Virus record (IMG/VR): IMGVR_UViG_2623620506_000008
Span: 1 to 27,625 of that record
DNA: 27,625 nt
DNA from: a virus
Lineage: Duplodnaviria > Heunggongvirae > Uroviricota > Caudoviricetes
Strand: one strand, 5' to 3'
Shown here: positions 11,139 through 19,353 of the stretch, in pieces
Numbering within the stretch: the stretch's first letter is position 1
Layout: every line of letters begins with the position of its first letter
Notes under the pieces: generated by a model
What the model saw: only the letters and a program-made list of their open reading frames with translations
The model's database searches: none
What the model was told of the DNA's origin: nothing
Position numbers and translations under genes: made by a program

Positions 11139-11554
11139 TGTTGTCCACCTCCCTGTATCGCGTTCAACTCTCTACGATGCTCGTTCAGATAGCTGCTCCA
11201 GTGAGCTTGCCGGATGATGGCGGCCTGCTCTTTCAGCAGTGCTGGTTCGCGAATAGCCTTGCCTTTTCGGTTATCGTCCTCCCGGATGACATCGCCATTC
11301 ACATGCAGCGTCTGACATAGCGGGCAATAATCGCGGGTCTCCATTCCCCCAGCTTTTCCAGAGAAGAAGATATTGCCGTGCCACGTTCCGCACTCAGCGC
11401 ACATTGGCGCGTCGCAGGTGAAGATTCCTCGGGCATTGCTGAGGTGATGATTCTCGTCTTCATCAGCATCCCAGCCGATGATCCCATCGCATAGCAGGGT
11501 TGCAGGTTTTCCGCAGAACAGACATTTCGCTGATTTAGCCATGCTCACCCCCAT
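11123..11554 (-). CDS. Hypothetical Cys-rich zinc-finger protein (nin region)
   Basis: CLFCG...CDAPMCAECG...CPLCQ motifs; probable start is ATG at 11542. Confidence 0.45.
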   Translation of the reverse strand: MGVSMAKSAKCLFCGKPATLLCDGIIGWDADEDENHHLSNARGIFTCDAPMCAECGTWHGNIFFSGKAGGMETRDYCPLCQTLHVNGDVIREDDNRKGKAIREPALLKEQAAIIRQAHWSSYLNEHRRELNAIQGGGQQCLPF

Positions 11555-11751
11555 ACCTTCTGACGGAATGCCCCCGGCGTACGTTCCTGCCGGCGCGCCT
11601 CCGGCAGCCTGGCGCTGACGGTCCAGGTGAGATAATCACGGTTAAGGCTGCGCTCTACCTTCACGCCGCGGCGCCGGTATTCCCACATAAGCTCTTCGGC
11701 CTGCTCCGTGGTGCATTCGGTATGGTGAAACCAGGTATATTTCATTGGCAT
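11545..11751 (-). CDS. Hypothetical small nin-region protein
   Basis: Likely start is the ATG overlapping the upstream stop (TGATG at 11749-11753); the track ORF extends to 11835. Confidence 0.35.
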   Translation of the reverse strand: MPMKYTWFHHTECTTEQAEELMWEYRRRGVKVERSLNRDYLTWTVSARLPEARRQERTPGAFRQKVWG

Positions 11752-12347
11752 CACCCCGCGAAGCTCATGAGCTGCGCAGCGGCGTTCTCCGCGTCGCGCT
11801 GGCTCTTGAATGCCCTGGACAATATCCAGCGCCACAGGACATCAAGCGCAGCTTTGTACAGCTGCTGGAACTCGGTTTCGTCCATATTGGCGAAGGCAAT
11901 GCTGCGGGGATGTTTGCGGAGTGTGCCGTCAGGCAGCTGGATCGCGTCGTAGTGACCGGATTCGATGGTTACCCAGGCGCGGTAGGCATCGAATGACTTA
12001 CAGGCACTGATGCTGCCTGTGCGCTTATCAGCGATGCGATCGAGATATTGCTCAGCGGCATCCAGCAGCGCCCCTTCGTTCCCGCCGTAGGAGGCCAGAA
12101 ATCTGGCATAGCCGGTAACCAGCTTGCGTTCGTTGGAAGAGATCGCCCCGCCAGTTGGCTCCCAGTATTCAAACCCGAGGTTCAGAAGCGCGAAGAAGCG
12201 GCGATGGAAAGCCGGATTACGGACCTGTTTGAAGTCGGCCACCAGCACGGCGCCGAGCTTAATTTTTGATTGCAGTATGTCGCTGGTCTCCGGCGTGGCG
12301 GGGATCAGGATTCCTGAGGACTGCTTGATTAGTTGTAACTGCGCCAT
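11751..12347 (-). CDS. Hypothetical nin-region protein
   Basis: 198-aa ORF with ATG start and phage-like context; family not recognised with confidence. Confidence 0.5.
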   Translation of the reverse strand: MAQLQLIKQSSGILIPATPETSDILQSKIKLGAVLVADFKQVRNPAFHRRFFALLNLGFEYWEPTGGAISSNERKLVTGYARFLASYGGNEGALLDAAEQYLDRIADKRTGSISACKSFDAYRAWVTIESGHYDAIQLPDGTLRKHPRSIAFANMDETEFQQLYKAALDVLWRWILSRAFKSQRDAENAAAQLMSFAG

Positions 12348-12429
12348 GGGATTCTCCGTGGCGCATCGTGGTCAGGTTACCGGTTGTTCAGGCCGGTATA
12401 AACATTATGCTATTCAGACACTAAAAAGG

Positions 12430-12723
12430 TCAATTACTGGCTGATAACTCTCTGACGATCTCCACCAGAGTTTCGCGTGATATGACGCGTTCGTCCGTCT
12501 GAAGGCGCTTATAGCCAATTTCTGCGCCAGCAACATTCACCAGCACACGATCTCCTGGCCGGAGTTTAAACGAACACGCGGTAGCGCCATCAGAACGCCT
12601 CACGATATCGAAATACTCACCTCCATCAGAACACACCTCAGCCACATCAACCCCCTTCTTTGCTATCAACAAATTTATCTCTGCCGGCGGGAAAAGCTCC
12701 CCTTCATGAAACCAAGATAACAA
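12430..12723 (-). CDS. Hypothetical protein with no in-frame ATG
   Basis: ORF has no ATG; candidate starts are TTG at 12723 or GTG at 12648 (AAGGGGG RBS 5 nt upstream). Lies 78 bp downstream of the LexA box on the minus strand. Confidence 0.3.
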   Translation of the reverse strand: MLSWFHEGELFPPAEINLLIAKKGVDVAEVCSDGGEYFDIVRRSDGATACSFKLRPGDRVLVNVAGAEIGYKRLQTDERVISRETLVEIVRELSASN

Positions 12724-12800
12724 ATGGCTCTAATTTCCTAATAGGTTGGCCGACAAAGAATTCAAAAATTTTACTGCAGCTCTTAAACCATATCTCAAAA

Positions 12801-12820
12801 TACTGTATAAATAAACAGTG
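12801..12820. promoter_or_regulatory. LexA (SOS) box
   Basis: TACTGTATAAATAAACAGTG matches the E. coli LexA consensus TACTGTATATATATACAGTA at 17 of 20 positions with intact CTGT-N8-ACAG; overlaps a plus-strand TTAAAC-18 bp-TATAAA promoter-like pair. Confidence 0.6.
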
Positions 12821-13140
12821 TTTATCCGTTCGGCTTAAGTATGCACGTGAAAGGCATCTTTGCGCAAGGTCATTTATCTAATTGATTTGGATAATTTTTA
12901 TCGCTACTTACGTGTAAAAAATGATCGTTATTTTTAACACTCAGCGCAGAAAAGTATGCTGGTATAGATATCTTATTCCAATACTCTAGCTTACCACTCA
13001 GGGAGTAGGTCCCTACGCCAAGGGTATATAGAAGCACGGACGCATTCTGTCAGGTTGGTAATTTGTTACTGCAGAGTGTATGTTTCATAATCGTTTTAAT
13101 AGATTAATATCATTTCATCGATCCGTTAAGGCGATCAAGT

Positions 13141-14184
13141 ATGCACGGCTGGCCTTCATACGACCAATGCTTAGAAAAGCATTCTGAAGAAACCATAAGT
13201 GACTTGCACTTTGTTACCACACCACTTCGGAAATTTGAGCTGACCAGTGGCTGCGCAAACGGGGTAGCACATTGCCTATTTAATTCTATAGAAGTAAAGT
13301 ACCCAACATTATTCAGCTATTTGTTAAGGGAATTTATGAAAAGAGGAATGATAATCACGAGTAAAGTTGAGATAGATCAGGAAAATAACTCCGTTAAATT
13401 TAGACCAGAATTTAGCCAAAAGGCTCTGCGATATGGAGTGCTTTATCTTGATGAAATTTGTGTCGCGCAGACCTCTCTGTTTCAAATTGGATTGCCGGTT
13501 GATTGGCAACAACTAAAGAAGGAGAAAATAGTTAATGAGATCATTGGTAAGCCATCGCTCAGCGGAACGGTCGATTTTGCAAAAGCAGCTTTAGATGCAT
13601 ATTCCCAGTCGTTTTCTGAGTTAAACAAACGCCGAAATGAAACTTGGTGTCTCAATAAAGAATTCAAATTCCTCAATGAGCGCATTCCATTTATTGATTG
13701 TCATGGGGAAACTCTAACATTTTTGAATGCGCTTCCTGTGCCTACCGAAGACTTTCCTATAGGTGATCTTTATGAATTCCGCATAAAAAGAGATGATGAG
13801 CGCAAAGAGTTGATGAATTCAATTGATCGACTTAGGCTCAACGTTCTGAAAAGTGAAGATAAACACAATGCACTTAAAGTAGGCTTACTTGATGTTGAGA
13901 GTAATCTCATAACAATGAATCGCCTAATCAAAGAAACGAAGAGAGGTTTCTACCTTACTGATTTTTCATTGGATTACTCATCTAAAGATATGCTCGAAGT
14001 TTTCAAAGGAACATATGAAGCAACCACCACCTCAGGATTCGACAAACTTTCAGCATTAATCTTAGGTATGGGGGCATCACTAGCTTCAGGATTCAATTTT
14101 AAGGGGGGATACAGATATAAGCAGGCAAAACCAAACTCCCCTTATTTTTACGCAGCAGAGATAGTACATAAGTTTGATGTTTAA
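13141..14184 (+). CDS. Orphan low-GC protein, function unknown (moron)
   Basis: 347-aa ORF on the opposite strand to the surrounding early operon; GC about 32-43% against 55-60% flanks; alternative start ATG at 13336 with AAGGGA RBS; strong hairpin just after the stop. Confidence 0.6.
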   Translation: MHGWPSYDQCLEKHSEETISDLHFVTTPLRKFELTSGCANGVAHCLFNSIEVKYPTLFSYLLREFMKRGMIITSKVEIDQENNSVKFRPEFSQKALRYGVLYLDEICVAQTSLFQIGLPVDWQQLKKEKIVNEIIGKPSLSGTVDFAKAALDAYSQSFSELNKRRNETWCLNKEFKFLNERIPFIDCHGETLTFLNALPVPTEDFPIGDLYEFRIKRDDERKELMNSIDRLRLNVLKSEDKHNALKVGLLDVESNLITMNRLIKETKRGFYLTDFSLDYSSKDMLEVFKGTYEATTTSGFDKLSALILGMGASLASGFNFKGGYRYKQAKPNSPYFYAAEIVHKFDV

Positions 14185-14195
14185 TTCTTCAAAGT

Positions 14196-14228
14196 GAGGA
14201 TTCAAATTTTAAGCGCATTTGAATCCTC
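14196..14228 (+). terminator. Perfect 12-bp stem-loop after the orphan gene (terminator or insulator candidate)
   Basis: GAGGATTCAAAT-TTTAAGCGC-ATTTGAATCCTC, 12 nt after the stop; weak U-tract. Confidence 0.4.
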
Positions 14229-14458
14229 GTCTTACTAAGTATATATCGTTTATGCCTAGAGTTTAATTACTGGAGTAAGATTTTCACTGACTTAAAATAT
14301 TGAACATGAGACGTTTAGGTATTTTCGGAGTTTGCGAGCCGACTAAGTAAACACAGCGTCCTTGACGCCCTACACTGACAACCTAACCTAGTCAGCATCT
14401 TTTTACGCTGATTCACTAATTATGTATGCCTGCGCGTTTAAATGCTCATTGGTGAATG

Positions 14459-14953
14459 TCATGGGTTAGTCCTCGCTAAAACTCTGATTCCCTCAGCAAT
14501 GTCTACCAACGTTTCTGAATATTCTCGCTGCGCGTCATTTCCAAATTCAAACGAGCCAGTGTCGTTATCAACACGACCATGCTCGTTATCGAAAGACTCG
14601 CGCTGCTTATCAACCCAGTTCGCAGCAGCAGACACACCTTCACTAAAAGCTGATTCTGTAGGCATGAAAGACAGATCGGCGAAGAACTCACCAAAGCCAA
14701 AGCAGACTGAATATGCCAGGCGGCCATGCGGTTTGTAGCCAGGGTTAGTGATATCCGTTGTTGAGTACGTGGCGGTGATTTCCTCAACTACCGCCTCTGG
14801 CCGCGATGGGTTATCAGACCATGGGATGCAAATCAGGTCGAAGTCTCGCGCCATCGTTCCATGAATAGCCATGGCGTAACCGTGCTTACGAGCTATCTCT
14901 GCCAGTGCCGGGTAAAGCGCGCAATATACTGGTGCGAAGTTAGCTGGTTTCAT
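14459..14953 (-). CDS. Hypothetical early protein
   Basis: Probable start is the ATG at 14953 next to the upstream stop; the track ORF extends to 15034; no confident family. Confidence 0.45.
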   Translation of the reverse strand: MKPANFAPVYCALYPALAEIARKHGYAMAIHGTMARDFDLICIPWSDNPSRPEAVVEEITATYSTTDITNPGYKPHGRLAYSVCFGFGEFFADLSFMPTESAFSEGVSAAANWVDKQRESFDNEHGRVDNDTGSFEFGNDAQREYSETLVDIAEGIRVLARTNP

Positions 14954-16193: not shown

Positions 16194-16883
16194 TCACGCC
16201 CTCCCCTCGGATTTCATCTGTTCGTACTTAGCCTTGAGCATCTCTGCTGGTGTGGGGCCGCTGGCTTTAGCCGGCGCGGCGATGGCGCGGCGGATTGGCG
16301 GTACGGGCTTACCTGCGGCGACGCGCTCTTCCCATCCAGCCAGGACCTTGCCGGCGGCCTGGCGCATCTCGTTTTCGGTCATCTGCCGATCGGTACTCTG
16401 GCGTCGCAGCTCGGTGCAGATGTGGTAAAGCACCGGCGTTGGCCAGGGGTATTGCTCACTGGTCGGGAAACGGAACACCAGGCGGCGCCATTTCCAGTAC
16501 TCAGTCATCACGTCATCAACGGTGATCCCCAGCAGGCAGCGCTCCTCCTTGCACCAGGCGACGAACTGGCCCGGAGACGGCAGGAACGGCTTTTCCTGGC
16601 GGCGAGCGACACGCATGCCGGCGGCGACCTGGGCCATGGTGATGATCCCGTTCTCCTGAAACGCCATCAGCCACTGGCGGCGCAGCTCGTTGAAATCGCT
16701 CTGCTCACGGAAAACGGCCATTGCCGCCGGGAACGCGGCACGCAGCGCGCTGAACAGGTCGTTGAAAATCTCCGCCGTCTGCTCGACATCCGGGCGCTCT
16801 GCCGGAGCCTCAGGCATGCCATGGGCGATACGGCGGAAATTCTCGCGGTCACAGTTCGCCAGCTGCTCAGATAGTCTTTCCAT
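16194..16883 (-). CDS. P: Replication protein P-like (DnaB helicase loader)
   Basis: Clear similarity to recalled lambda P (RRIAHGMPE, IRRQW-AF-ENGI-TM-QV-AGMRVARRQ-PFLPSPGQFVAWC). Confidence 0.85.
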   Translation of the reverse strand: MERLSEQLANCDRENFRRIAHGMPEAPAERPDVEQTAEIFNDLFSALRAAFPAAMAVFREQSDFNELRRQWLMAFQENGIITMAQVAAGMRVARRQEKPFLPSPGQFVAWCKEERCLLGITVDDVMTEYWKWRRLVFRFPTSEQYPWPTPVLYHICTELRRQSTDRQMTENEMRQAAGKVLAGWEERVAAGKPVPPIRRAIAAPAKASGPTPAEMLKAKYEQMKSEGRA

Positions 16884-17910
16884 CGAACACCTCGTTGATC
16901 CAGTCTGTGTTGTTGAAGTCGATGCCCTGGGCAGCTGGGCGGGGAGCGGACGGGTTGCTCAGGCGCTTGGTGCTGAGCTTGTCCCATTGCTTACGCAGGC
17001 TGGACGGGCTCAGGATATTGGTCTTCCAGAACTCATCCTTGCTGGCCCATTTGAGAAGGTCGCAAATTTCGTAATGCGTGCGGTTATCCTGCTGGCGCAT
17101 CAGCCGGATGGTATTGGCCCACTCAACCCATTTCGGCTCGCTCAGAGTGGCGTTTACCGTCAGGAGTTGGGTGTATATCCAGCGAGCGGCTTTGAGGTCG
17201 TCAGCCGTTCCCCAGGATTTGCCGGAGGGGGTATAGATTCCATCTGCAGCTTCAGGGTGACGAGAAAGAAATTTTTCAATCGCGTCGTTTCGGGATTCGG
17301 CAGAATTCCGAGACGAAGAGATCTTATTATTTATATTGTTGTTATTACCTTGTTGTTCATGATGCGCGGCTAATTGCGCGGCCTTATGCGCGGGTAAATG
17401 CGCGGCATCTCCCTCACAAGCCCCGCCGTTACTGGGTTCTTCATGCGCGGCATTATGCTCGCCGTAATGCTCGCCGTAATGCGCGGGTAAATTGTCTATT
17501 TTTTGAGCGTAAAGGGCATAATTTGTGATGGTAATCACAGTGCCTTTTCGCTTCTCACCAGCGGTAGAAATCATCCCCTCTTTAACGAAAAGCGCCAGCA
17601 TCCGTTCCACTGCATGGCGACTTGTAGGCTCTCCAGCCCGGTCACATAATTTCAGGCCGAGATCGGCTGAGGTGGTCACCAGTTGTCCGGTTTGCAGCGG
17701 CCACTGACGGCCTTTAAAGTTCGCCGTGTAAGGCTGACGGGCTGCGCCCAAAAGAAGGTTCTCCCACAGCGTGCGCAGGTAAACATCTTTCGCCCAGGGC
17801 TTCTTCAATACACTCCGGTACAACGGGATGAATCCAGTCTTCTGGTTGTCCATCCGGTTGCTCCTGACGGCACTGCGTGCCGCAAAATCGGCGTAAGCGA
17901 CATTCGACAT
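16867..17910 (-). CDS. O: Replication initiator, O-like
   Basis: Immediately upstream of P; N-terminal DNA-binding-like domain, low-complexity middle encoded by iterons, C-terminal domain; preferred start ATG at 17910 with AAGGGG RBS (track start 17967 is TTG). Confidence 0.7.
   Translation of the reverse strand: MSNVAYADFAARSAVRSNRMDNQKTGFIPLYRSVLKKPWAKDVYLRTLWENLLLGAARQPYTANFKGRQWPLQTGQLVTTSADLGLKLCDRAGEPTSRHAVERMLALFVKEGMISTAGEKRKGTVITITNYALYAQKIDNLPAHYGEHYGEHNAAHEEPSNGGACEGDAAHLPAHKAAQLAAHHEQQGNNNNINNKISSSRNSAESRNDAIEKFLSRHPEAADGIYTPSGKSWGTADDLKAARWIYTQLLTVNATLSEPKWVEWANTIRLMRQQDNRTHYEICDLLKWASKDEFWKTNILSPSSLRKQWDKLSTKRLSNPSAPRPAAQGIDFNNTDWINEVFDGKTI
17311..17490. repeat. Origin-like iteron array with adjacent AT-rich tract inside the O-like gene
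   Basis: Two arrays of four 12-bp units (consensus ATGCGCGG plus 4 nt) at 17362-17409 and 17443-17490; AT-rich tract 17311-17357. Confidence 0.6.
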
Positions 17911-18037
17911 GGCTATGCCCCTTTCGCCTGGTGTTTTGTACATGTATTTGTCATAATGACCTCGCAATTACGTCCCGTTTTTGCACCCGAAAGCCGTTGG
18001 TGTTCACGCACCGCGGCTTTCACCATTTCTGAGCCCG

Positions 18038-18595
18038 TCATAGCGCACCACCCAGCATCGTTGTAACCATCGCCATAATGGGCGCCACAGAATCAGGTCC
18101 GTCCAGGTAGAGCTTGGCTACGATGCTCTCGCTGATTTCCTTAAGGCGCTCGTGTCTGGGGGCTTTGAGAACGACAGCCTGAATGGCTTCTGCATCCTCT
18201 TTCAACGACCTGGCTACACGGACCGCGAAGCAATCGTTCTTAACCACGCGATCCCGGTACGCCAGCGGCAGAACCGAAATTATTACCGGCGCCATCTGCT
18301 CGACGTTTGCCCGGTAGGCCGGTGATTTCTCGTGGTTGTCCAGCCAGCGAAAAAGCTTCACGTTCCACACGTCGGGGCTTCCGCTTGTGTCGATGCCATC
18401 GAGCCCGGATTCCTCAACTGCCATCTTAATGGCCAGCGCGACAGCCACGCGGCCCTCTGCCGCCGCCCAGGCGCGAACAGCAGAACAGAGGGCGCGGTGA
18501 TCGACCGGCTGACCTTCGGCTTCGCCATGTTGATACTGGAATTTCAGGCGCTCTGACGGCGCTCTGTTATTCTGTTGAAAAGAAAGTGTTTGCAT
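18038..18595 (-). CDS. YdaT/CII-like early regulator (tentative)
   Basis: 185-aa ORF directly downstream of the Cro-like gene, ATG with AGGAG RBS; assigned by position. Confidence 0.4.
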   Translation of the reverse strand: MQTLSFQQNNRAPSERLKFQYQHGEAEGQPVDHRALCSAVRAWAAAEGRVAVALAIKMAVEESGLDGIDTSGSPDVWNVKLFRWLDNHEKSPAYRANVEQMAPVIISVLPLAYRDRVVKNDCFAVRVARSLKEDAEAIQAVVLKAPRHERLKEISESIVAKLYLDGPDSVAPIMAMVTTMLGGAL

Positions 18596-18606
18596 TTTCA
18601 GTGCTC

Positions 18607-18828
18607 CTACTTTGGTAATCCGTCAGTGGGGTTAGGGTAAGCTTCAGGATCAATCTCGTGTGGTGTCACTTGCCATTCCAGGAACTGACAAAGGGGAATG
18701 ATTCTTTTTTGTGGCACTCCGCTCGCATAGATCCACTTGCCGACAGCCTGACTGCTAATACCGAAGTGCTTCCCGATACGAGTGCGCGTTGCAGCTTTGC
18801 TTATTTTTTCTTGGGTTTGTTTGTTCAT
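18607..18828 (-). CDS. cro: Cro-like HTH regulator
   Basis: 73-aa product with HTH (TRIGKHFGISSQAVGKWI), AAGGAG RBS, divergent from the repressor gene; the track ORF extends to 19134. Confidence 0.65.
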   Translation of the reverse strand: MNKQTQEKISKAATRTRIGKHFGISSQAVGKWIYASGVPQKRIIPLCQFLEWQVTPHEIDPEAYPNPTDGLPK

Positions 18829-18933: not shown

Positions 18934-19353
18934 GTGCGTATGAATGAAATTACTTTCCCGACCTTCGCTAGAAGAATTCAACAAGTAATGGCTGAAAACG
19001 GCTGGTCGAAATCTGACCTCGCCAAAAAGGTCATGCTTTCGCATACGGCCGTTCAAAATTGGGCTAAGGGTAGAAATGTAGCCAGTGGAGAGCGGTTGAA
19101 GAGGCTTGCTGCTGTAACAGGAAAGCCTGAGCATTGGTTCTTTATGGAGGAAGGTCAGGAAGATGCGGCGACAAACACCTTGGGTCAGTCGGCTGTAGAA
19201 CTTGATGAGAAAGAACAGGCCCTACTTTCCCTCTTTAACCAGCTCCCTGAAGCTGAAAAGTTAAGACTCATCCTTCACACTAAAGCTGTCCTTCATGAGA
19301 TTGAGCTTCTAAAAAACGACGTATACGACATTATCAACAGCTCTAAAACATAG
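18934..19353 (+). CDS. cI: Prophage repressor, RacR/CI-like HTH, no peptidase S24 domain
   Basis: N-terminal HTH (WSKSDLAKKVMLSHTAVQNWAKGR), 139 aa, no Ser/Lys autocleavage domain; divergent from cro; first ATG at 18940. Confidence 0.7.
   Translation: MRMNEITFPTFARRIQQVMAENGWSKSDLAKKVMLSHTAVQNWAKGRNVASGERLKRLAAVTGKPEHWFFMEEGQEDAATNTLGQSAVELDEKEQALLSLFNQLPEAEKLRLILHTKAVLHEIELLKNDVYDIINSSKT

What the first reader, a model, noticed from the sequence alone, without database searches (positions are those of the whole stretch)
12430..12723. Conserved-looking ORF with no ATG start, next to the LexA box
The 97-codon frame has no ATG. Plausible starts are TTG at 12723 or GTG at 12648 with a good AAGGGGG RBS, giving about 72 aa. 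The C-terminal half looks like a small beta-rich DNA-binding or antitoxin-like fold. It may be the first SOS-controlled gene on the minus strand.
Basis: inference. Interest (0 to 1): 0.4.

Follow-up and report, generated by a model that had tools for sequence, protein, structure and literature searches.

The report
SOS-controlled Gifsy-type prophage antirepressor gene
The ORF is a real 71-codon gene that starts at a GTG and is a relative of GftA, the small LexA-controlled protein that Gifsy prophages of Salmonella use to switch off their repressor after DNA damage, so it is an unannotated member of a known kind, not a new system.

Summary
A 97-codon frame without ATG lies at 12430-12723 (-), downstream of the only strong LexA box in the window (12801-12820).

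The gene is shorter than the frame. It runs from GTG 12645 (not 12648) to TGA 12430, 71 aa, behind the Shine-Dalgarno AAGGGGG. In 47 related loci:
- the GTG, the 71-codon length and the TGA never change;
- the coding part has no indels, variation is highest at third codon positions, and dN/dS is 0.08-0.35;
- the 78-nt upstream extension carries frame-shifting indels and in-frame stops.

The protein belongs to PHROG 4847 ("unknown function"), which matches Gifsy-1/-2 GftA over its whole length. GftA is an experimentally shown LexA-repressed antirepressor that also starts at GUG (Lemire 2011). The window protein matches GftA at 30% identity end to end (BLASTP E 3e-11; hhalign 98%). It sits in the same slot, just upstream of the irsA/DUF1367 gene. 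The prophage's 137-aa HTH-only repressor is 65% identical to GftA's target.

One difference: no dinI gene lies between the LexA box and the antirepressor.

The suggested DNA-binding or antitoxin fold has no support.

Verdict: new member of a known kind, of modest interest.

The parts
12430..12645 (-). Antirepressor gene, GftA family: GTG start at 12645-12643, 71 codons (MAEVCSDGGEYFDIV...VRELSASN), stop TGA at 12432-12430.
   Evidence: GTG, 71-codon length and TGA are invariant in 48 loci with no indels; variable columns by codon position 44/36/64. dN/dS 0.08-0.35. PHROG 4847 E 7e-11. BLASTP to Gifsy GftA 30% identity over the full length, E 3e-11. hhalign 98%, E 1.5e-13. The exact 71-aa protein is in NCBI as an E. 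coli 'hypothetical protein'.
12646..12723 (-). This is untranslated leader, not coding sequence.
   Evidence: Relatives have 74-86 nt here, with frame-shifting indels, and in-frame stops 12-57 nt upstream of the GTG in most.
12651..12657 (-). Shine-Dalgarno sequence AAGGGGG, 5 nt upstream of the GTG.
   Evidence: Sequence. A GGGG(G) run at the same spacing is present in 46 of 48 loci and in Gifsy gftA.
12801..12820 (-). LexA (SOS) box CACTGTTTATTTATACAGTA.
   Evidence: 17 of 20 matches to the consensus; the only hit in the window and none in 100 shuffles. Conserved 148-203 nt upstream of the GTG in 45 of 47 relatives.
12787..12815 (-). Candidate promoter overlapping the LexA box: TTTATT, 17 nt, TATGGT. 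Inferred and weak. An alternative is a -10 overlapping the left edge of the box, as in Gifsy.
   Evidence: Read from the sequence and from the alignment of relatives, where GTATGGTT is conserved in most leader types. In Gifsy-1 and in relatives L005/L007 a clear TTGAAT or TTGATC, 17 nt, TA(TA)CTGT promoter overlaps the box. The consensus scanner did not call a promoter here.
12404..12433 (-). Promoter-like TTGACC, 18 nt, CATAAT, overlapping the antirepressor stop codon.
   Evidence: 10 of 12 consensus matches. Present in all 48 loci of this clade and as TTGACT, 18 nt, CATAAT in Gifsy-1. Function not tested.
12378..12398 (-). Conserved hairpin TACCGG / CCTGAACAA / CCGGTA between the antirepressor gene and the DUF1367 gene.
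   Evidence: The loop YCTGAACAN is invariant and the stem covaries across loci: AACGG/CCGTT, ATCGG/CCGAT, ACTGG/CCAGT, TGTAGG/CCTGCA and others. No Rfam match.
11751..12347 (-). DUF1367 gene (irsA homologue), the next gene downstream.
   Evidence: Pfam PF07105 E 4e-94. 86% identical to Gifsy-1 STM2620. [quoted passage not shown]
18940..19353 (+). Prophage repressor, 137 aa. The only Pfam domain is an HTH, with no S24 peptidase domain. This is the presumed target of the antirepressor.
   Evidence: Pfam HTH_3 at residues 12-66 and nothing else. 65% identity over the full length to the Gifsy-1/-2 LT2 repressor STM2628, E 2e-66.
18038..18828 (-). Cro-like (YdaS family) gene 18607-18828 and CII-like (YdaT family) gene 18038-18595, divergent from the repressor gene. 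Together these form a Gifsy/Rac-type immunity region.
   Evidence: Pfam YdaS_toxin and YdaT_toxin. PHROG 35 and PHROG 163.

Best explanation
The gene at 12645-12430 (-) encodes a 71-aa LexA-controlled antirepressor of the Gifsy GftA family, and the window is part of a Gifsy/Rac-like lambdoid prophage (E. coli-type).

Proposed mechanism:
1. In the lysogen, host LexA sits on the box at 12801-12820 and keeps the gene silent.
2. DNA damage activates RecA and LexA cleaves itself.
3. The gene is transcribed with a leader of about 115-160 nt and translated from a GUG behind a strong Shine-Dalgarno sequence.
4. The small protein binds the prophage's short, non-cleavable HTH repressor (18940-19353) and takes it off its operators.
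5. This de-represses the early operons and induces the prophage.

Shown here: the gene is real, its start codon, the conserved LexA box, homology to GftA, the same genomic slot, and a GtgR-type repressor in the same prophage.

Inferred from the Gifsy experiments (Lemire et al. 2011): LexA repression, binding to the repressor, and induction.
For: Coding and start codon. The 71 codons carry no indels in 48 loci, variation is highest at third positions, and dN/dS is 0.08-0.35. The GTG is invariant and the upstream frame is broken in relatives.

Family. The window protein matches PHROG 4847 at E 7e-11. Gifsy-1/-2 GftA (STM2621.1n) matches the same PHROG over its full length at E 1e-45. BLASTP of window protein against GftA gives 30% identity from residue 1 to the last, E 3e-11. 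Profile-profile comparison gives 98% probability, E 1.5e-13.

Shared gene-level features with gftA. Both have a GGGGG Shine-Dalgarno, a GTG start, an MAE N-terminus, a ...E(I/V)VRE(L/M)...N C-terminus, and a stop codon inside TTGAC.

What is known of GftA. [quoted passage not shown] It is sufficient to induce the prophage, binds the repressor, and releases it from DNA (PMC3121763).

Context. The DUF1367/irsA homologue starts 82 nt downstream of the stop. The LexA box is conserved in 45 of 47 relatives.

Target. The repressor has only an HTH domain and is 65% identical to the Gifsy-1/-2 LT2 repressor. At least 14 IMG/VR phage contigs, plus L006 and L007, carry both this antirepressor clade and a repressor 63-81% identical to the window's.
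Against: - Identity to GftA is only 30%, although the repressors are 65% identical, so specificity for this repressor is assumed and not shown.
- No dinI homologue lies between the LexA box and the gene, unlike in the Gifsy operons.
- A sigma-70 promoter at the LexA box is not clear-cut in this window. The base at the position of the Gifsy -10 T is C, and the scanner called nothing.
- The structure model is only moderate (pLDDT 73) and has no informative structural neighbour.
- No detectable similarity to the other experimentally tested small antirepressor checked directly, Rem of Qin, or to the protein in the same slot of phage SPN3UB.
- There are no expression or binding data for this locus.
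Confidence: 0.84

Rival explanations
1. A real SOS-induced small protein of the GftA fold that has taken on another role in this dinI-less clade. Examples would be acting on a host protein such as RecA or the division machinery, or on repressors of other resident prophages, instead of inactivating its own repressor.
For: Only 30% identity to GftA while the repressor is 65% identical. dinI, the usual operon partner, is missing in all 48 loci of the clade. Lemire 2011 shows that such antirepressors can act on non-cognate repressors.
Against: Same slot, same size, same start-codon architecture and same LexA control as GftA. It co-occurs with GtgR-type repressors in at least 17 genomes counting the window. 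A repressor without a cleavage domain needs some inducer, and no other candidate sits behind a LexA box in the window.
Confidence: 0.1
2. The protein is the full 97-aa product initiated at TTG 12723.
For: The frame is open from 12723 in this window, and a few database entries are called with N-terminal extensions.
Against: In relatives the extension is 74-86 nt long, so it is frame-shifted. 41 of 47 have an in-frame stop within 57 nt of the GTG, and 30 of 47 have no upstream in-frame start codon. The amino-acid sequence of the extension is not conserved except where it overlaps the Shine-Dalgarno sequence. No Shine-Dalgarno sequence precedes the TTG.
Confidence: 0.02
3. A small beta-rich DNA-binding protein or antitoxin, the reader's fold guess, that acts on DNA or on a toxin partner.
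For: Predicted secondary structure is four beta-strands plus one helix in a protein of about 70 aa, which is superficially like some antitoxins.
Confidence: 0.03
4. A chance open frame in an untranslated or regulatory region, with no protein product.
For: No ATG. Several gene callers skip it: it is not called in 2 of 3 contigs that carry this prophage.
Against: 48 loci with 39 distinct DNA sequences show no indel or stop in 71 codons, variation is highest at third positions, and dN/dS is well below 1. The Shine-Dalgarno sequence and GTG are conserved. In Gifsy-2 a frameshift in gftA abolishes activity.
Confidence: 0.01

Closest known systems
GftA (Gifsy-2, and Gifsy-1 of strain LT2; STM2621.1n), a LexA-controlled antirepressor (Lemire, Figueroa-Bossi and Bossi 2011, PMC3121763)
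   Same: Homologous: PHROG 4847, BLASTP E 3e-11 end to end, hhalign 98%. Similar size (71 vs 73 aa). GUG start behind a GGGGG Shine-Dalgarno sequence. LexA box upstream and the irsA/DUF1367 gene immediately downstream. The stop codon is embedded in a TTGAC..CATAAT promoter-like element. The partner repressor is of the same short HTH type and 65% identical.
   Different: Only 30% identical in sequence. No dinI gene lies between the LexA box and the antirepressor; there is a leader of about 155 nt instead. The activity of the window protein is untested.
GfoA / GfhA (Gifsy-1 and Gifsy-3 of strain ATCC14028), and the protein in the same slot of Salmonella phage SPN3UB
   Same: Same function class, same slot between dinI and irsA, same LexA control, small size.
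   Different: A different sequence clade. The SPN3UB slot protein, which I assumed to be GfoA-like without having the GfoA sequence, shows no significant profile match to the window's family (hhalign probability 4%). Its partner repressor is only 32% identical to the window's.
Rem of the E. coli K-12 Qin prophage, antirepressor of DicA (Ragunathan and Vanderpool 2023, PMC10448788)
   Same: A small (83 aa) prophage protein that relieves repression by a short DicA/RacR-type HTH repressor.
   Different: No detectable sequence similarity (hhalign probability 0.7%). The signal that induces Rem is unknown, and LexA control is not reported.
Tum of coliphage 186, and AntC of N15
   Same: LexA-repressed antirepressors that bind a non-cleavable phage repressor. 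This is the same logic of coupling induction to the SOS response.
   Different: Tum is 146 aa and carries a DinI-like C-terminal half (per PMC3121763). Here there is no DinI-like sequence in the protein or in the window. Sequence relationship to Tum or AntC was not tested directly. Pfam gave no family and the PHROG scan only PHROG 4847.

Membership tests
GftA-type small antirepressors (PHROG 4847) | Significant sequence homology to GftA over the whole protein | tested here: met
   Window protein vs PHROG 4847, E 7e-11. GftA vs the same PHROG, E 1e-45. BLASTP 30% identity over residues 1-71 vs 1-73, E 3e-11. hhalign 98%, E 1.5e-13.
GftA-type small antirepressors (PHROG 4847) | Protein of about 70 aa translated from a non-canonical GUG start | tested here: met
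   GTG at 12645, 71 codons, invariant in 48 loci. Lemire 2011 reports a GUG start for gftA, and the Gifsy-1 sequence shows GGGGGTTACGTG.
Gifsy-type LexA/antirepressor induction module | Gene lies outside the immunity region, downstream of the replication genes and immediately upstream of the irsA (DUF1367) homologue | tested here: met
   Replication genes at 16194-17967. DUF1367 gene at 11751-12347, 82 nt after the stop. The arrangement is the same in all relatives whose flank extends far enough.
Gifsy-type LexA/antirepressor induction module | LexA box at the operon promoter | tested here: met
   A 17-of-20 consensus box at 12801-12820, unique in the window with 0 of 100 shuffles matching, conserved in 45 of 47 relatives. 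Overlap with a functional promoter is inferred only.
Gifsy-type LexA/antirepressor induction module | dinI homologue as first gene of the operon (dinI - antirepressor - irsA) | tested here: not met
   tblastn with Gifsy DinI finds nothing in the window or in any of the 47 loci of this clade, but does find it in the more distant clade L051-L088. Lemire 2011 reports that dinI deletion has no significant effect on induction, so this is a feature of the operon layout and not of antirepressor function.
Gifsy-type LexA/antirepressor induction module | Cognate repressor is short and lacks the RecA-stimulated self-cleavage (S24) domain | tested here: met
   137 aa with the HTH_3 domain only. 65% identical over the full length to the Gifsy-1/-2 LT2 repressor.
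Gifsy-type LexA/antirepressor induction module | The protein binds the repressor, releases it from DNA, and is sufficient for induction | not testable with these tools
   Needs genetics and biochemistry.
GfoA / Rem-type antirepressors | Sequence homology to Rem or to the SPN3UB slot protein (taken as GfoA-like) | tested here: not met
   hhalign of the family profile A4 vs Rem: probability 0.7%. vs the SPN3UB protein: probability 4%.

The most novel reading that the evidence does not exclude
In this dinI-less clade, antirepressor output may be set by more than LexA. Three features point that way:
- an invariant weak GUG start;
- a leader of about 150 nt that keeps a 10-13 bp long-range helix at the same place in sequence-unrelated leader types;
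- a conserved promoter-like element and a hairpin with a covarying stem and invariant loop straddling the gene's 3' end.

Together these could form a post-transcriptional threshold device that decides how much SOS signal is needed to induce the prophage. This would fit the observation that gftA mRNA is detectable in uninduced Salmonella lysogens (Owen et al. 2020).
Probability: 0.2. Interest if true: 0.45.

Novelty: new member of a known kind. Interest (0 to 1): 0.25.

Why it matters
Practical value is mainly for annotation. The family has no Pfam model, its PHROG (4847) is labelled "unknown function", NCBI calls the identical E. coli protein "hypothetical", and gene callers often miss it or extend it because of the GTG start.

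Recognising it identifies this prophage, and at least 47 related ones, as inducible by the LexA/antirepressor route and not by repressor self-cleavage. That affects predictions of which prophages fire under DNA-damaging antibiotics, and of cross-talk between co-resident prophages.

It does not open a new biological question.

Tried and rejected
- Megablast against complete E. coli genomes and blastn against phage genomes matched only the DUF1367 end of the query. The antirepressor region is too diverged at DNA level.
- Pfam and PADLOC gave nothing for the ORF.
- The PDB sequence-profile search gave no credible hit.
- Rfam had no match in 11500-14500.
- Leader RNA structure. The minimum free energy is not unusual (z = 0.17 for the window, mean z = +0.44 over 32 leaders). 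RNAalifold finds no consensus beyond the LexA palindrome. I therefore do not claim a leader structure and only note the recurrent helix.
- The search for related loci with the broad alignment A4 failed because it has no conserved stretch. I used A1 instead.
- The consensus promoter scan did not find a promoter at the LexA box. Promoter placement remains inferred.
- I looked for a second copy of the YCTGAACAN hairpin in the window, as expected for a nut-like pair. The two other loop-motif hits have no stem.
- I rejected the idea that the leader is a dinI remnant. There is no tblastn similarity to DinI anywhere in the window.

Full report
**1. The observation**

The window has a 97-codon open frame at 12430-12723 on the minus strand. 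It begins at TTG and contains no ATG.

Bases 12648-12646 read GAT, and the GTG is at 12645-12643. The purine-rich AAGGGGG lies at 12657-12651, 5 nt before that GTG.

A near-consensus LexA box, CACTGTTTATTTATACAGTA, lies at 12820-12801 on the same strand, 155 nt upstream of the GTG. It matches 17 of 20 consensus positions. It is the only such site in 27.6 kb, and no shuffle of the window produced one.

**2. Where the gene starts and whether it is coding**

A search of 5.8 billion proteins returned 38 relatives. Most are called as 71-aa proteins beginning MAEVCSDGGEY, which corresponds to the GTG at 12645. Longer calls have unrelated N-terminal extensions of variable length.

I collected 5 genomic loci (Silvania, Pseudescherichia, Escherichia sp. 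and two metagenome-assembled genomes) and 42 IMG/VR phage contigs of the same clade. In all 47, as in the window:
- the start is GTG;
- the frame is exactly 71 codons;
- the stop is TGA;
- a G-run Shine-Dalgarno sequence sits at the same distance in all but two loci.

Across 39 distinct DNA sequences there is no indel. Variable columns by codon position are 44/36/64, and pairwise dN/dS in six diverged sequences is 0.08-0.35.

The 78 nt between TTG 12723 and the GTG behave differently. They are 74-86 nt long in relatives, so the frame shifts. 22 of 47 relatives have an in-frame stop 18 nt upstream of the GTG, and 41 of 47 have one within 57 nt. 30 of 47 have no alternative in-frame start codon.

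So the gene is 12645-12430 and encodes 71 aa, and the extension is leader. The exact 71-aa protein is already deposited as an E. coli "hypothetical protein". Of three public contigs carrying this same prophage, only one has the gene called.

**3. What it is**

Pfam and PADLOC give nothing. The PHROG scan gives one hit, PHROG 4847 ("unknown function"), E 7e-11.

tblastn against phage genomes found weak hits at one position in Gifsy-1 and Gifsy-2 of Salmonella LT2, and in a Klebsiella prophage. In Gifsy-1 the hit is STM2621.1n, a 73-aa "hypothetical protein" between the DinI homologue STM2621 and the DUF1367 gene STM2620. STM2621.1n matches PHROG 4847 over its whole length, E 1e-45.

This gene is gftA. 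[quoted passage not shown] They found a small ORF starting at GUG and showed the following:
- its expression alone induces the prophage;
- a frameshift abolishes the activity;
- the operon is LexA-controlled;
- the protein binds the non-cleavable repressor and removes it from DNA.

The window protein aligns with GftA from first to last residue: 30% identity, 58% positives, E 3e-11. A profile of the window clade against a profile of the GftA clade gives 98% probability, E 1.5e-13.

The DNA-level anatomy is also shared:
- GGGGG, 5 nt, GTG GC(A/T) GAG at the start;
- a C-terminus ...E(I/V)VRE(L/M)..N;
- a stop codon inside AATTGAC, followed 18 nt later by CATAAT.

**4. Context**

The window is a Gifsy/Rac-like lambdoid prophage read on the minus strand:
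- RecE-like exonuclease, on the plus strand;
- divergent immunity region;
- O- and P-like replication genes;
- a low-GC island with an opposite-strand DUF6236 gene;
- the LexA box and antirepressor gene;
- DUF1367/irsA, NinG and Q.

The repressor (18940-19353, 137 aa) has an HTH_3 domain only and no S24 cleavage domain. It is 65% identical over its full length to the Gifsy-1/-2 LT2 repressor, which is GftA's target. Cro and CII equivalents belong to the YdaS and YdaT families.

L006 and L007 carry both this antirepressor clade and a repressor 63% identical to the window's. At least 14 of the IMG/VR contigs with this antirepressor clade appear among the best 80 repressor matches, at 64-81% identity. 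The repressor list was truncated, so absence from it means nothing.

**5. How it most likely works**

- LexA occupies the box and blocks the promoter.
- After DNA damage, LexA self-cleavage allows transcription.
- The 71-aa protein is made and binds the repressor. The Gifsy GfoR-GfoA complex behaves as an A2B2 heterotetramer.
- The repressor leaves its operators and lytic development starts.

Shown here: gene, start codon, LexA box, homology, synteny and repressor type. Inferred from Gifsy: every biochemical step.

The promoter itself is uncertain in this window. In Gifsy-1 and in relatives such as L005 and L007, a clear TTGAAT or TTGATC, 17 nt, TA(TA)CTGT promoter overlaps the left half of the box. 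The window and most of its clade instead have a conserved GTGCATACTT block at the -35 position. They also have a possible TTTATT, 17 nt, TATGGT promoter overlapping the box from the other side.

**6. Differences from the known system**

No dinI homologue exists in the window or in any of the 47 clade members. The LexA box is followed directly by a leader of 148-203 nt and the antirepressor gene.

A more distant clade in the same search (L051-L088, 29-36% identical) keeps dinI between the box and the gene. The Gifsy authors found dinI dispensable for induction. So this is a layout variant and not a different mechanism.

The family profile shows no detectable similarity to Rem of Qin, or to the SPN3UB protein that occupies the same slot next to a GfoR-like repressor. 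I therefore file the window protein under the GftA clade specifically.

**7. Structure**

With the combined alignment, AlphaFold gives a moderate model (pLDDT 73). It has four beta-strands at residues 11-48 and a C-terminal helix at 57-69. There is no significant neighbour in PDB or BFVD and no PDB sequence relative.

The fold of this antirepressor family appears not to have been solved.

**8. Verdict**

This is a correct and careful observation of a real gene that gene callers and family databases mostly miss. The biology is known: a LexA-controlled GftA-type antirepressor paired with a GtgR-type repressor.

Novelty: new member of a known kind, in a dinI-less operon layout. Interest is modest.

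The side observations might repay transcript mapping, but none is established here. They are the invariant GUG, the recurrent leader helix, the promoter-like element on the stop codon, and the covarying hairpin upstream of DUF1367.

Noticed in passing
window 12378-12398 (-): Hairpin TACCGG/CCTGAACAA/CCGGTA between the antirepressor stop and the DUF1367 start. Across about 88 loci, including Gifsy-1 and SPN3UB, the 9-nt loop YCTGAACAN is invariant. The 4-7 bp stem covaries: AACGG/CCGTT, ATCGG/CCGAT, ACTGG/CCAGT, GCTGG/CCAGC, TGTAGG/CCTGCA. No Rfam family matches. There is only one copy in the window, but L051 and L054 have a second copy elsewhere with a different stem. Function unknown; it could be a protein-binding or processing site.
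   Followed up: partly
window 12404-12433 (-): Promoter-like TTGACC, 18 nt, CATAAT (10 of 12 consensus matches) whose -35 element contains the antirepressor stop codon. It is conserved in all 48 loci of the clade and in Gifsy-1. It would start transcription at about the hairpin above. It may give LexA-independent expression of the DUF1367/nin genes.
   Followed up: partly
window 12646-12800 (-), arms about 12749-12759 and 12678-12688: The leader contains an 11-bp long-range helix, UCUUUGUCGGC / GCCGGCAGAGA. A helix of 8-13 bp ending about 52-54 nt from the 3' end of the folded segment, about 32 nt upstream of the GTG, appears in the minimum-free-energy fold of 13 of 32 leaders. These include a sequence-unrelated leader type (GAAUUUAUUUAUU / AAUGAAUAAAUUU). 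However, overall folding energy is not unusual (mean z +0.44) and RNAalifold finds no consensus.
   Followed up: partly
window 12700-14450; gene 13141-14184 (+): Low-GC island (37-40% against about 55%) just upstream of the LexA box. It carries an opposite-strand 347-aa DUF6236 gene (Pfam E 5e-10; PHROG 23128). This looks like a moron insertion. It has no PADLOC defence-system match. The relatives compared (L001-L007) lack this gene.
   Followed up: partly
proteins P0055 and P0056 (Salmonella enterica), not in the window: Proteins of 86 and 104 aa in which a phage CII-type N-terminus (PF05269) is joined to the C-terminal 50 or so residues of GftA. This is an apparent recombinant between cII and the antirepressor gene.
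   Followed up: no
L015 (IMGVR_UViG_3300014667_000007), upstream of 2991: One relative has lost the left half of the LexA box at what looks like a recombination junction: only ...TTATATATACAGTG remains. Its antirepressor gene may have escaped LexA control.
   Followed up: no
L051-L088 (IMG/VR): A distant clade of the same family, 29-36% identical, keeps the Gifsy layout of LexA box, dinI, antirepressor and DUF1367. Its longer open frame (about 76-92 codons) has a start I did not determine. L059, L086 and L087 again show GGGGGATAATGTG, so a GTG start.
   Followed up: no
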